From NCBI RefSeq assembly GCF_013315695.1, contig NZ_CP054353.1: DNA of 64,000 nt, one strand, 5' to 3'. Shown one piece after another: positions 15,001 through 18,000 of this stretch (positions within the stretch are counted from its first letter, which is position 1; each line of letters starts with the position of its first letter). The position numbers were made by a program. The DNA is from Escherichia coli. Lineage in GTDB: Bacteria > Pseudomonadota > Gammaproteobacteria > Enterobacterales > Enterobacteriaceae.

Positions 15001-18000
15001 TGTATGAATCCCGCCTGAAGGGAAAGCTGCACGTAATCAGCAAGCGATATACGCAGCGAATTGAGCGGCATAACCTGAATCTGAGGCAGCACCTGGCACG
15101 GCTGGGACGGAAGTCGCTGTCGTTCTCAAAATCGGTGGAGCTGCATGACAAAGTCATCGGGCATTATCTGAACATAAAACACTATCAATAAGTTGGAGTC
15201 ATTACCGAAGAAGTCATTGGCAATAACATTGATATGCTGATTCCGCGGGATTTGCGTCCTGCGCATCCTGAATACATTCGTCATAACCGTGAAGGCGGTA
15301 AAGCGCGCGTCGAGGGGATGAGTCGGGAGCTGCAGCTGGAGAAAAAAGACGGCAGTAAAATCTGGACCCGTTTTGCGCTATCGAAAGTGAGCGCCGAGGG
15401 GAAAGTTTATTACCTGGCGCTGGTACGGGATGCCAGCGTAGAAATGGCGCAAAAAGAACAGACCCGACAATTGATTATTGCCGTTGACCATCTCGACCGA
15501 CCGGTGATTGTCCTCGATCCGGAACGCCATATTGTGCAGTGCAATCGCGCATTTACCGAAATGTTTGGTTACTGCATTAGCGAAGCCAGCGGTATGCAGC
15601 CCGATTCACTCCTTAACATTCCTGAATTCCCTGCCGATAACCGCATTCGTTTACAACAGTTGCTTTGGAAAACCGCCCGCGATCAGGACGAATTTCTGCT
15701 ATTGACGCGCACCGGTGAAAAAATCTGGATTAAAGCCTCTATCAGCCCGGTTTATGACGTGCTCGCGCATCTGCAGAACCTGGTAATGACCTTCTCGGAT
15801 ATCACCGAAGAACGGCAAATCCGCCAGCTTGAAGGCAATATTCTCGCCGCCATGTGCAGCAGCCCGCCATTTCATGAAATGGGGGAAATCATTTGTCGTA
15901 ACATCGAATCTGTACTCAACGAATCGCATGTTTCGCTGTTCGCGCTGCGCAACGGGATGCCGATACACTGGGCGTCATCTTCGCACGGTACAGAAGTTCA
16001 AAATGCGCAAAGCTGGTCAGCGACCATTCGTCAGCGTGATGGCGCGCCGGCGGGGATCCTGCAAATTAAAACCTCGTCAGGAGCAGAAACCAGCGCCTTT
16101 ATCGAACGCGTGGCAGATATCAGCCAGCATATGGCCGCGCTGGCGCTGGAACAGGAAAAAAGCCGTCAGCATATTGAACAACTCATCCAATTTGATCCGA
16201 TGACCGGTCTGCCAAATCGCAATAACCTGCACAATTACCTCGATGACCTGGTCGACAAAGCCGTCTCTCCGGTGGTGTATCTCATCGGTGTTGACCATAT
16301 TCAGGATGTGATTGATAGCCTTGGCTATGCGTGGGCCGATCAGGCATTGCTGGAAGTGGTCAATCGCTTTCGTGAAAAATTCAAACCGGATCAATATCTC
16401 TGTCGTATCGAAGGTACGCAGTTTGTCCTCGTGAGCCTCGAAAACGACGTCAGTAACATTACGCAGATCGCCGATGAGCTACGGAATGTGGTCAGCAAGC
16501 CGATAATGATTGACGATAAACCATTCCCGCTCACCTTGAGCATTGGCATCAGCTACGACGTGGGTAAAAACCGCGATTACCTGCTCTCCACTGCTCACAA
16601 TGCAATGGATTTTATTCGCAAAAATGGCGGTAACGGCTGGCAGTTCTTCAGCCCGGCGATGAACGAAATGGTAAAAGAGCGTTTGGTTTTAGGCGCGGCG
16701 CTGAAAGAAGCAATTAGCAATAACCAACTGAAACTGGTTTACCAGCCACAAATCTTCGCAGAAACGGGTGAACTGTACGGCATCGAAGCCCTTGCTCGCT
16801 GGCACGATCCCCTGCATGGTCATGTGCCCCCTTCACGGTTTATTCCTCTCGCAGAAGAGATCGGTGAAATAGAAAATATTGGACGCTGGGTCATCGCGGA
16901 AGCTTGTCGTCAGTTAGCAGAATGGCGTAGCCAGAATATTCATATCCCGGCGTTATCCGTTAACTTGTCGGCGTTGCACTTTCGCAGTAATCAGCTGCCT
17001 AATCAGGTGTCTGATGCAATGCAAGCCTGGGGTATTAACGGCCACCAGCTGACGGTGGAAATCACGGAAAGCATGATGATGGAACACGATACCGAAATCT
17101 TTAAACGCATTCAGATCCTGCGCGATATGGGCGTGGGTTTATCGGTAGATGATTTTGGCACGGGCTTTTCCGGATTATCCCGCTTAGTCAGTCTTCCAGT
17201 AACGGAAATCAAAATTGACAAAAGTTTTGTCGATCGTTGTCTGACCGAAAAACGCATCCTTGCCTTACTTGAAGCCATTACCAGCATTGGGCAAAGCCTT
17301 AATTTAACCGTCGTGGCGGAAGGCGTCGAAACCAAAGAGCAATTTGAGATGCTACGCAAGATCCACTGTCGCGTTATTCAGGGATATTTCTTTTCCCGCC
17401 CCCTACCCGCCGAAGAAATTCCAGGCTGGATGAGCAGTGTGTTACCGCTGAAAATCTGACAAATTCCTCTCGCCCGCACTCGCGGGTTTTCCTTTAACGT
17501 GACACTGTCACTTAAATACTGTGATTTCAGCTACGATTCCGGGAGATTCCTTCCTTAACTTCCCCTCTTGCACCAAAACTGCACTACGCTGCACAAATGT
17601 TGATCAAAAGTTAAAAAATATAACTTTAAGCCAGCATTCTGGCGCTTATCCCGGCATGGCATGAGATCTGCATAAGCGGAAAGCGCAGCAATTTTTGTCT
17701 TATACAGGAACCATTTATGTCGGATACCACCGAACTGGTTGATTTAGCCGTGATCTTCCCTGATCTGGAGATCGAACTGAAATACGCCTGCGCTGATAAC
17801 ATCACAGGTAAAGCTATTTATCAGCAAGCGCGTTGTCTGTTACACAAGGATGCGATTACCGCGCTGGCGAAAAGTATCAGTATCGCCCAGCTGTCAGGCT
17901 TACAACTGGTGATTTACGATGCGTATCGCCCACAACAAGCACAGGCGATGTTGTGGCAAGCCTGCCCAGACCCGCAATATGTTGTTGATGTGGCGGTCGG

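What the first reader, a model, noticed from the sequence alone, without database searches (positions are those of the whole stretch)
15207..17459. N-truncated DosP may still be expressed from IS1 read-through
The dosP remnant keeps most of the PAS domain plus GGDEF and EAL but has lost its start codon, SD and about 49 residues of the heme-PAS N-terminus. IS1 insA/insB are transcribed toward it, and the first in-frame ATG (15234) lies 43 nt after the insB stop. If made, the product could be a deregulated, oxygen-blind phosphodiesterase rather than a null.
Basis: inference. Interest (0 to 1): 0.4.

Follow-up and report, generated by a model that had tools for sequence, protein, structure and literature searches.

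The report
IS1-truncated dosP pseudogene, dosC deleted
An IS1 insertion sequence has replaced the promoter, the whole dosC gene and the first 49 codons of dosP in one E. coli clone. The dosP remnant has an intact reading frame but no promoter or ribosome-binding site, so it is most likely a silent pseudogene and not a rewired oxygen-blind enzyme.

Summary
IS1 occupies 14439-15206 (+), with insA/insB' reading towards dosP. The dosP remnant (15207-17459) starts at codon 50 of 799. The first in-frame ATG (15234, Met59) lies 43 nt past the insB' stop, in the same frame.

There is no target-site duplication, so this is an IS1-associated deletion. It is one clonal event. The same junctions occur in 2 of 5,426 complete genomes, and the exact product is called on at least 334 public contigs. 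RefSeq marks dosP there as a pseudogene.

Expression looks improbable:
- The only promoter-like site is IS1's own InsA-repressed promoter.
- No hybrid or outward promoter sits at the right end.
- ATG15234 has no Shine-Dalgarno sequence (-1.5 vs -7.1 kcal/mol for native dosP).
- A published lacZ reporter placed just after the insAB' stop of a native IS1 gave 1.1 units.

The likeliest state is still a double null for DosC and DosP. This is an ordinary finding of low interest.

The parts
12999..14318 (+). digH (yddW), the intact upstream gene in the same orientation. It is the only possible source of external read-through into IS1.
   Evidence: 439-aa ORF. Annotated digH in AF3, MSB1_4I and MS 21-1. 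A promoter-like site lies at 12938-12965, and the gadC terminator at 12893-12921 insulates digH from gadBC.
14336..14369 (+). Hairpin after digH: 12-bp G+C-rich stem, region dG -22.5 kcal/mol, weak U tract. Probably the digH terminator, and present unchanged in intact relatives.
   Evidence: RNA fold. The terminator scan did not list it, because its loop exceeds 8 nt.
14439..15206 (+). Complete IS1 (IS1A type), 768 bp, 100% identical to two other copies in the window. It has no flanking target-site duplication (left flank CCACACTTA, right flank GAAGAAGTC).
   Evidence: Annotated as IS1A-family transposase with programmed frameshift in MSB1_4I.
14446..14473 (+). IS1 promoter in IRL (CTGCCA-16-TATGAT). 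It is the only sigma-70-like site on the + strand between digH and codon ~230 of dosP.
   Evidence: PMC12903888 describes PIS1 as weak and InsA-repressed.
14494..14769 (+). insA (GTG start, 91 aa). It encodes the repressor of the IS1 promoter, which also binds both IS1 ends.
   Evidence: PMC12903888.
14745..14751 (+). A6C (AAAAAAC) programmed -1 frameshift motif.
   Evidence: Sequence. Frameshift efficiency is about 1.6%.
14688..15191 (+). insB' frame, translated only as InsAB' after the frameshift. Stop codon TAA is at 15189-15191, in the same frame as the dosP remnant.
15207..17459 (+). dosP (pdeO) remnant: codons 50-799 plus the stop, uninterrupted. It differs at 1 nt (16380) from intact dosP of MS 21-1. 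RefSeq annotates it as a pseudogene, 'missing N-terminus'.
   Evidence: NCBIfam DosP equivalog NF008467 matches profile positions 59-800 at 1514 bits.
15234..15236 (+). First in-frame ATG (Met59; Met67 in the historical 807-aa numbering). No Shine-Dalgarno sequence upstream.
   Evidence: Anti-SD duplex dG is -1.5 kcal/mol, versus -7.1 for native dosP and -6.9 for insA.
15264..15320 (+). Codons for the two heme axial ligands are retained: His69 (historical His77, 15264-15266) and Met87 (historical Met95, 15318-15320).
   Evidence: Translation. The numbering offset of +8 is confirmed by PDB chains and by PMC11543664.
15483..15818 (+). PAS-B (PAS-PAC) domain, intact.
   Evidence: Pfam PAS_4/PAS_9 at residues 142-253 of the full protein.
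16191..16634 (+). Degenerate GGDEF (EGTQF) domain, intact. It contains the private substitution L441F (16380 C>T), seen only in the window's strain.
   Evidence: None of 5,324 complete genomes has this 81-mer, and this exact protein is absent from the 15-billion-protein collection.
16698..17402 (+). EAL phosphodiesterase domain, intact.
   Evidence: Pfam EAL, 235 bits.
17717..18298 (+). ddpX, the first gene of the downstream ddp operon, unaffected.

Best explanation
The region is the scar of an IS1-associated deletion in an IS1-expanding E. coli clone.

Origin (inferred). IS1 most likely inserted first into the AT-rich digH-dosC spacer, a recurrent IS1 target. The 1,809 bp to its right were then removed, either by an IS1-mediated adjacent deletion or by recombination with a second IS1 copy. 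The lost DNA comprises the rest of the spacer with the sigmaS-dependent dosCP promoter, all of dosC, and dosP up to codon 49.

State of the remnant. It has an intact 750-codon frame only because the event is recent and clonal. It has no promoter of its own and no ribosome-binding site. Its heme-PAS domain is broken in the middle of the fold.

Sources of transcription. Only two remain:
- leakage past the digH hairpin;
- the weak, InsA-repressed IS1 promoter.
Transcripts from either source must cross about 420 nt of essentially untranslated insB' before reaching dosP.

Conclusion. The locus most likely behaves as a double null for DosC and DosP, with at most trace amounts of an unstable N-truncated protein. 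The anatomy, the deletion, the clonality and the absence of expression signals are shown. The order of events and the absence of protein are inferred.
For: Structure and origin:
- 1,809 bp are replaced by IS1 relative to MS 21-1, with no target-site duplication.
- Identical junctions occur in AF3, MSB1_4I, an NCTC strain, KTE strains and two metagenome contigs.
- The exact 741-aa product is on 334 contigs.
- The left breakpoint lies in 72% A+T DNA, the right in 53%.
- Independent IS1 insertions hit the same spacer in 65COLEC, 8 bp away and with an 8-bp duplication. Four other genomes have IS1 near the same spot, and one has IS1 inside dosC.

No expression signals:
- The only + strand promoter-like site is the IS1 promoter at 14446-14473.
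- The -35-like TTGGAG in IRR faces CATTGG, ATTGGC or TTGGCA at -10 distance.
- ATG15234 has an SD dG of -1.5, versus -7.1 kcal/mol for native dosP.

Measured IS1 read-out (PMC12903888):
- 1.1 beta-galactosidase units for lacZ with its own RBS directly after the insAB' stop.
- 16.8-fold repression by InsA.
- 1.6% frameshifting.
Terminator sequences are also described near IS ends, including Hubner et al. 1987 for IS1, as cited in PMC12095673. This genome has at least 40 IS1 matches.

Fold:
- Pfam loses the heme-PAS hit in the truncated product.
- The AF2 model of residues 1-140 places the N-cap, strand A (24-28), strand B (33-37) and helix C (39-45) in the deleted part. Helix D (49-52) lies before Met59.
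- The deleted part includes Met30 (historical numbering), which is needed for the PAS dimer interface (PMC11543664).

Annotation and drift:
- PGAP annotates the remnant as a pseudogene.
- The window's strain carries a private nonsynonymous change (L441F) seen in no other genome. This fits relaxed constraint, but it is a single observation.
Against: - No transcript or protein measurement exists for this allele, so 'silent' is inferred.
- The frame is intact in hundreds of assemblies. Clonal recency explains this, but it would also fit retention by selection.
- The scan found no intrinsic terminator on the + strand between the IS1 promoter and dosP.
- insB' is G-rich rather than C-rich (C/G about 0.7), so composition alone does not predict strong Rho-dependent termination.
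- Upstream transcription measurably feeds into IS1 elements (PMC12428005).
- Heme-free and PAS-truncated DosP are active in vitro, so even small amounts of product would be catalytically competent if folded.
Confidence: 0.8

Rival explanations
1. Transcripts from the IS1 promoter or from digH read through IS1. Ribosomes start at ATG15234 (Met59) and make a 741-aa protein whose crippled heme-PAS domain can no longer hold the EAL domain off. The cell then contains a low-level, constitutive, O2-independent c-di-GMP phosphodiesterase and no DosC.
For: - insA/insB' point towards dosP, and the 741-aa frame is open.
- No + strand intrinsic terminator was detected between the IS1 promoter and dosP.
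- Transcripts do reach the insAB' stop of native IS1 at a measurable level (1.1 units), and flanking transcription adds to them.
- Heme-free, H77A, PAS-A-truncated and R131A DosP are active without ligand.
- PAS-B, GGDEF and EAL are intact.
- The allele persists in a widely sampled clone.
Against: - 1.1 units with a good RBS is very low, and here there is no SD at all (dG -1.5).
- InsA from at least 40 IS1 matches should keep the promoter repressed, and InsA also binds IRR.
- No hybrid promoter exists.
- Coupling to insB' requires a 1.6% frameshift followed by re-initiation 42 nt downstream.
- The truncation leaves a partial PAS fold lacking two of five strands. Such a fragment is more likely to misfold or be degraded than the clean domain deletions studied in vitro.
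- The window's strain has already picked up a private missense change.
Confidence: 0.1
2. A shorter product starts at an internal codon with some SD complementarity. The candidates are Met87 (15318, GAGGGG immediately upstream) and Met129 (15444). Met129 would remove the heme-PAS domain almost exactly at the linker helix and so mimic the engineered PAS-A-truncated, constitutively active enzyme. Transcription would come from read-through or from a weak internal promoter.
For: - SD duplex dG is -5.3 for Met87 and -4.1 for Met129, better than for Met59.
- An extended -10-like TGATATGCT at 15230-15238 would start transcripts just downstream of ATG15234.
- One gene caller chose Met87 on one ENA contig (713-aa entry).
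- PAS-A-truncated DosP retains full activity and tetramer formation (PMC4263535).
Against: - The GAGG before Met87 is only about 2 nt from the ATG, too close for efficient initiation.
- Local mRNA structure around both sites is as stable as elsewhere (-16.5 to -16.7 kcal/mol).
- The promoter-like element scores only 7 of 12.
- The same internal codons exist in every intact dosP, and no internal isoform was reported in the papers read.
- The transcription supply problem is the same as for the first rival.
Confidence: 0.06
3. The junction is an assembly artefact, a mis-join at a repeated IS1, and the real genome has intact dosCP.
For: IS1 is a high-copy repeat in this genome, and short-read scaffolds of the clone contain N gaps inside this IS1.
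Against: - Both junctions are identical in two independently finished genomes from different continents, in an NCTC assembly and in the window.
- Short-read contigs end inside IS1 but carry the same right junction (L012 and L013).
- Neither the window nor the finished relatives have dosC sequence at this locus.
Confidence: 0.01

Closest known systems
IS1-promoted adjacent deletions / IS-mediated pseudogenisation in IS-expanding E. coli and Shigella lineages
   Same: A complete IS1 is retained. One junction lies in an AT-rich preferred target. There is no target-site duplication, a contiguous block of neighbouring DNA is removed, and the next gene is left 5'-truncated. The genome carries many identical IS1 copies.
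   Different: Nothing mechanistically different was found. The intermediate, IS1 in the spacer with dosCP intact, is not seen in this clone. It appears only as independent events in other strains such as 65COLEC.
Engineered heme-free or heme-PAS-truncated Ec DOS/DosP (Yoshimura et al. 2003; Tanaka & Shimizu 2008; H77A and R131A in PMC11543664)
   Same: The heme-PAS sensor is disabled while PAS-PAC, EGTQF and EAL are kept. In vitro such proteins are constitutively active.
   Different: The engineered constructs delete the domain cleanly or change single residues, and they are expressed from strong vectors. Here the break is inside the fold, after helix C. The axial ligands His77 and Met95 remain, and the gene has no promoter or SD.
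Hybrid promoters created by IS1 insertion (Prentki et al. 1986), and IS-driven activation of neighbouring genes generally
   Same: The IS1 end carries a -35-like hexamer (TTGGAG at 15193) facing outward towards a downstream gene in the same orientation.
   Different: No -10-like hexamer lies at 16-18 bp (CATTGG, ATTGGC, TTGGCA), so the defining hybrid promoter is absent.
Natural dosC-deleted, dosP-intact allele found in about a fifth of complete E. coli genomes
   Same: DosC is lost while the dosP coding sequence is retained next to digH.
   Different: In that common allele the digH-dosC spacer (to about -41), the dosP SD and the full 799-codon dosP are kept, so DosP can still be made normally. 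Here the promoter, the SD and 49 codons are gone.

Membership tests
IS1 family insertion sequence (IS1A type) | About 768 bp with imperfect terminal inverted repeats of about 23 bp | tested here: met
   768 bp. IRL is GGTGATGCTGCCAACTTACTGAT and the reverse complement of IRR is GGTAATGACTCCAACTTATTGAT.
IS1 family insertion sequence (IS1A type) | insA and insB' overlapping frames with an A6C -1 frameshift motif | tested here: met
   insA is 14494-14769, insB' is 14688-15191 and AAAAAAC is at 14745-14751. PGAP annotates it as 'IS1A family transposase, programmed frameshift' in MSB1_4I.
IS1 family insertion sequence (IS1A type) | 8-9 bp direct duplication of the target, expected for a simple insertion | tested here: not met
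   The flanks are CCACACTTA and GAAGAAGTC. This marks a deletion or recombination event, not a simple insertion. It does not argue against the element being IS1.
DosP / PdeO (oxygen-sensing c-di-GMP phosphodiesterase) | Sequence match to the DosP equivalog model and to annotated dosP | tested here: met
   NF008467 at 1514 bits (cut-off 857), but only profile positions 59-800. There is 1 nt difference over 2,253 nt from MS 21-1 dosP.
DosP / PdeO (oxygen-sensing c-di-GMP phosphodiesterase) | Complete N-terminal heme-binding PAS domain | tested here: not met
   Residues 1-49 are deleted, or 1-58 counting from the first ATG. Pfam no longer detects PAS-A. Strands A and B and helix C are lost.
DosP / PdeO (oxygen-sensing c-di-GMP phosphodiesterase) | Own start codon and SD, and co-transcription with dosC from the sigmaS-dependent dosCP promoter | tested here: not met
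   The promoter-bearing spacer, dosC, the SD and the ATG all lie within the 1,809 bp replaced by IS1. Operon structure and RpoS control are described in PMC5635695 and PMC8846402.
DosP / PdeO (oxygen-sensing c-di-GMP phosphodiesterase) | Phosphodiesterase activity regulated by O2 | not testable with these tools
   This needs enzyme assays on the truncated product.
IS-activated gene (hybrid or outward promoter) | A -35 element in the IS end with a -10 element at 16-18 bp in the flank, or a complete outward promoter | tested here: not met
   Searches found none. The best candidate near the junction scores 7 of 12 and would start transcripts downstream of ATG15234.
IS-activated gene (hybrid or outward promoter) | Downstream gene with a usable translation initiation region | tested here: not met
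   SD dG is -1.5 kcal/mol at ATG15234.
IS-activated gene (hybrid or outward promoter) | Measured increase or maintenance of downstream transcript | not testable with these tools
   No expression data are accessible. The nearest proxy is the 1.1-unit lacZ reporter behind a native IS1.

The most novel reading that the evidence does not exclude
In this widely sampled clone (at least 334 public contigs) the remnant is kept because read-through yields small amounts of a heme-less, constitutively 'ON' DosP fragment. Transcripts would come from digH and IS1. Translation would start by leaky initiation at Met59, Met87 or Met129. Without DosC, the fragment would lower c-di-GMP independently of oxygen. 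That would be a natural example of sensor-domain amputation by an insertion sequence turning a gated signalling enzyme into an ungated one.
Probability: 0.07. Interest if true: 0.4.

Novelty: already known. Interest (0 to 1): 0.12.

Why it matters
As it stands, this is a routine IS-mediated gene loss. One E. coli clone has lost both the O2-sensing diguanylate cyclase DosC and DosP, described as the most abundant stationary-phase c-di-GMP phosphodiesterase in E. coli. The clone has been isolated from blood, gut and metagenomes on several continents.

That is useful to know for anyone studying c-di-GMP, biofilm or degradosome regulation in this lineage. It is also useful for annotation, because many draft genomes call the 741-aa ORF a normal 'phosphodiesterase'.

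If the remnant were expressed, it would be a neat natural case of an IS converting a gated enzyme into an ungated one. The sequence evidence points the other way.

Tried and rejected
- Literature search for dosP + dosC + IS1 found no paper. The E. coli GGDEF/EAL pangenome paper (Povolotsky & Hengge, PMC4686209) is not held, so I could not check whether this allele has been described.
- Rfam scan of 12500-18500 found nothing, so no RNA element explains the region.
- The terminator scan found no + strand intrinsic terminator in IS1 or the junction. I therefore could not confirm the published IS1 terminator by pattern. The same tool also missed the obvious gadC terminator, so its negatives are weak.
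- C/G composition as a proxy for Rho utilisation sites: insB' is G-rich, not C-rich. Rho-dependent polarity is argued from lack of translation and from the older literature, not from composition.
- Relaxed promoter scan (at least 7 of 12, extended -10 allowed) from 14800 to 15700 gave only marginal sites.
- The AF2 single-sequence model of residues 1-140 has only moderate confidence (mean pLDDT 65), and the heme-binding F helix region is poor. I used it only to place the N-terminal elements, which score 77-90.
- I did not model the truncated protein. AF2 would not tell whether a partial PAS fold is stable.
- Testing selection on the remnant was not possible. The three finished relatives differ by about 1.5 per 10 kb, so only about 0.3 changes are expected in 2.25 kb. 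The contig look-up is by exact protein identity and is therefore biased.
- Read-through from the strongly expressed gadBC operon was rejected. A textbook terminator follows gadC, and digH has its own promoter-like site.
- Stop-codon read-through giving an InsAB'-DosP fusion (the two share a frame) was rejected as negligible. It needs a 1.6% frameshift multiplied by read-through of a TAA-G stop.
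Full report
**1. What is in the sequence**

IS1 and its genes
- Window 14439-15206 is a complete 768-bp IS1 on the + strand. It has the canonical ends (GGTGATGCTGCCAACTTACTGAT... and ...AAGTTGGAGTCATTACC).
- insA runs 14494-14769 with a GTG start. The A6C frameshift motif is at 14745-14751. insB' runs 14688-15191 and ends in TAA at 15189-15191.
- This copy is 100% identical to two other IS1 copies in the window, at 50979-51746 (+) and 59803-60570 (-).

The dosP remnant
- From 15207 the sequence is dosP. Translation of 15207-17459 gives 750 residues plus a stop. These equal residues 50-799 of the 799-aa DosP of E. coli MS 21-1, with one difference, L441F at nt 16380.
- The first canonical in-frame start after the insB' stop is ATG 15234 (Met59). 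It lies 42 nt after the stop, in the same frame as insB', and opens a 741-aa ORF.
- Every number in the finding is therefore correct.

**2.

- Compared with MS 21-1, IS1 replaces 1,809 bp: 255 bp of the digH-dosC spacer, all 1,383 bp of dosC, the 24-bp dosC-dosP spacer and 147 bp of dosP. MS 21-1 is the closest complete genome with intact dosCP (1 nt different over the remnant; annotation).
- The flanks (CCACACTTA and GAAGAAGTC) are not a target duplication.
- The left breakpoint lies in 72% A+T DNA and the right in 53%.
- Other strains carry independent IS1 insertions in the same spacer. 65COLEC has one 8 bp away, in the same orientation, with the duplication CAATTAAC and intact dosCP. Four more genomes have IS1 near the same spot. 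DX6 has IS1 inside dosC.
- My inference is that IS1 first landed in the spacer. The DNA to its right was then lost by an IS1-mediated adjacent deletion or by recombination with a second copy. The reverse order cannot be excluded.

**3. How common it is**

- Both junctions occur in only 2 of 5,426 complete E. coli genomes: AF3 (UK, blood) and MSB1_4I (Australia, rectal swab). In both, PGAP marks dosP as 'incomplete; missing N-terminus'.
- The window is a third close relative. It differs from MSB1_4I by 7 mismatches over 42.7 kb, plus 5 over the 12-kb junction locus, four of them clustered in gadB.
- The exact 741-aa product (Leu441 form) is recorded on 334 contigs and in 612 index blocks of public assemblies. 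The places inspected were an NCTC strain, four KTE strains, an ENA metagenome and a JGI metagenome.
- All seven inspected loci carry the same right junction. Where the contig extends far enough, they carry the same left junction too.
- This is therefore one ancestral event inherited by a widely sampled clone. It is not an assembly artefact.
- The window's Phe441 variant is private. None of 5,324 complete genomes contains that 81-mer, and the protein is absent from the collection.

**4. Can the remnant be transcribed?**

- The deleted spacer held the promoter of the dgcO-pdeO (dosCP) operon, which is RpoS-dependent and induced in stationary phase (PMC5635695; PMC8846402).
- On the + strand between digH and about codon 230 of dosP, the only sigma-70-like site is the IS1 promoter in IRL (14446-14473).
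- The IS1 right end has a -35-like TTGGAG (15193). The hexamers 16-18 bp downstream are CATTGG, ATTGGC and TTGGCA, so no Prentki-type hybrid promoter exists.
- The best relaxed match near the junction, TGATATGCT at 15230-15238, scores 7 of 12. It would start transcripts downstream of ATG15234.
- External read-through could come only from digH, which is followed by a 12-bp G+C-rich hairpin (14336-14369).
- The strong gadBC operon further upstream ends in a textbook terminator, 12893-12921.

A directly relevant measurement exists (PMC12903888):
- lacZ with its own RBS, inserted immediately after the insAB' stop of a native chromosomal IS1, gave 1.1 units.
- InsA repressed transcription 16.8-fold.
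- Only 1.6% of transcripts were translated into InsAB'.
- That IS1 copy also receives upstream transcription (PMC12428005).

Other considerations:
This should give ample InsA, which also binds IRR.
- After the insA stop, about 420 nt of insB' are essentially untranslated. Classical genetics attributes IS1 polarity to Rho (my knowledge).
- A terminator sequence in IS1 was reported by Hubner et al. 1987, cited in PMC12095673.
- I could not confirm either point by pattern or composition.

**5. Can it be translated?**

- The anti-SD duplex energy upstream of ATG15234 is -1.5 kcal/mol. The comparison values are -7.1 for native dosP, -6.9 for insA and -6.0 for dosC.
- Met87 (15318) has GAGGGG, but only about 2 nt from the ATG. 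Met129 (15444) has a weak GGAUG (-4.1).
- Re-initiation after InsAB' termination would need the 1.6% frameshift first.

**6. What would the protein be?**

- Intact DosP has heme-PAS (residues 25-124), PAS-PAC (142-253), a degenerate GGDEF (378-525) and EAL (547-781). In the 741-aa product Pfam finds only the last three.
- PDB entries and PMC11543664 confirm that the historical numbering is +8. His77 and Met95 of the literature are therefore His69 and Met87 here. Both are retained, at 15264-15266 and 15318-15320.
- A single-sequence AF2 model of residues 1-140 has mean pLDDT 65, with 77-90 over residues 21-60. It places the N-cap helix (16-20), strand A (24-28), strand B (33-37) and helix C (39-45) in the deleted 49 residues. 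Helix D (49-52) lies before Met59.
- The deleted part also includes Met30 (historical numbering) of the PAS-PAS dimer interface and Trp53 (historical numbering), whose fluorescence is quenched by interaction with the heme.
- What remains of the sensor is the F helix, the FG loop and strands G, H and I. This is a partial fold that is unlikely to bind heme and may misfold (inference).
Heme-free DosP, heme-domain-truncated DosP, H77A and the decoupling mutant R131A are all active without ligand, and the isolated EAL domain is active too (PMC4263535; PMC11543664). If a soluble product were made, it would be O2-blind and 'ON'.

**7. Verdict**

The 'what if made' part is sound. The 'may be made' part lacks every sequence signal it needs, and the best available reporter data contradict it.
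- I put 0.8 on a silent pseudogene, that is, a double null for DosC and DosP.
- I put about 0.1 on trace expression from Met59 and about 0.06 on an internal start.
- The intact frame carries no weight as evidence for function. The clone is so young that only about 0.3 substitutions are expected in the remnant between finished relatives. The one change seen is a private missense change.

**8. Comparison with the known, and novelty**

- This is a standard IS1-associated deletion producing a 5'-truncated pseudogene in an IS1-expanding lineage. RefSeq already flags it as a pseudogene. It is not a new kind of system.
- It differs from the common natural dosC-deletion allele, found in about 1,100 of 5,406 complete genomes. 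That allele keeps the spacer, the dosP SD and the full dosP.
- It also differs from IS1 hybrid-promoter activation, whose defining -10 element is absent.
- Practical value: many draft annotations name the 741-aa ORF as an ordinary phosphodiesterase, which is misleading.
- Interest is low, 0.12.

Noticed in passing
window 14439-15206 (+), 50979-51746 (+), 59803-60570 (-); the window end at ~63947-64000: The 64 kb hold three 100%-identical IS1 copies. One splits an alkyl/aryl-sulfatase / MBL-fold gene and one sits between pqqU and mcbR. In MSB1_4I a fourth copy lies just beyond the window end, next to a 5'-truncated ortT. This is an IS1-expanding lineage that is accumulating pseudogenes.
   Followed up: partly
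L005 (GU2018_CL13) 2880-3460; about 1,100 of 5,406 complete E. coli genomes: A widespread natural allele has dosC internally deleted, from about 41 nt upstream of its ATG to about codon 406, with a 47-nt internal fragment retained. The digH-dosC spacer and a full-length dosP are intact. DosP without DosC is therefore common in E. coli.
   Followed up: partly
L002 (65COLEC) 5115-5882; hits H33-H37 and H129: Independent IS1 insertions recur in the AT-rich digH-dosC spacer. 65COLEC has one 8 bp from the window's left junction, with the duplication CAATTAAC. EC17CM6, MLI110, MB06021 and BDSF8-3 also have spacer insertions, and DX6 has one inside dosC. This is a local IS1 hot spot.
   Followed up: partly
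window 16380: A private C>T change (L441F, in the degenerate GGDEF domain of the dosP remnant) is found in none of 5,324 complete genomes. It is also absent from the 15-billion-protein collection. It is compatible with relaxed constraint, but it is a single event.
   Followed up: yes
window 10517-10955 (gadB): Four clustered SNPs separate the window from both AF3 and MSB1_4I, which otherwise differ at very few sites. The pattern suggests gene conversion between gadB and gadA.
   Followed up: no
window 14957 (L001, AF3): The AF3 copy of this same IS1 has a 1-nt deletion that frameshifts the transposase, plus an A/T difference at 14700. The IS1 at this locus is itself beginning to decay in one isolate.
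   Followed up: yes
window 52816-53865 (+): This is an accessory 349-aa GGDEF-domain protein. The GGDEF domain scores 158 bits, and no NCBIfam equivalog reaches its cut-off. It lies about 35 kb from the lost dosC and is an extra diguanylate cyclase candidate in this lineage's c-di-GMP network.
   Followed up: partly
window ~53866-54483 and ~36139-37024: In the MSB1_4I annotation, yncG has an internal stop and a leucine-rich-repeat protein gene is broken into pseudogene pieces. These are further signs of gene decay in the region.
   Followed up: no
window 12893-12921: A textbook intrinsic terminator follows gadC (GGGAGCGAT-AATTC-ATCGCTCCC followed by TTTTT). The consensus scan did not report it, so negative results from that scan should be treated with care.
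   Followed up: yes
protein P0001 (741 aa) in public databases: Many draft-genome annotations list the truncated Met59 product as an ordinary 'oxygen-sensing cyclic-di-GMP phosphodiesterase' (e.g. EEW8206140.1), without a pseudogene flag.
   Followed up: partly
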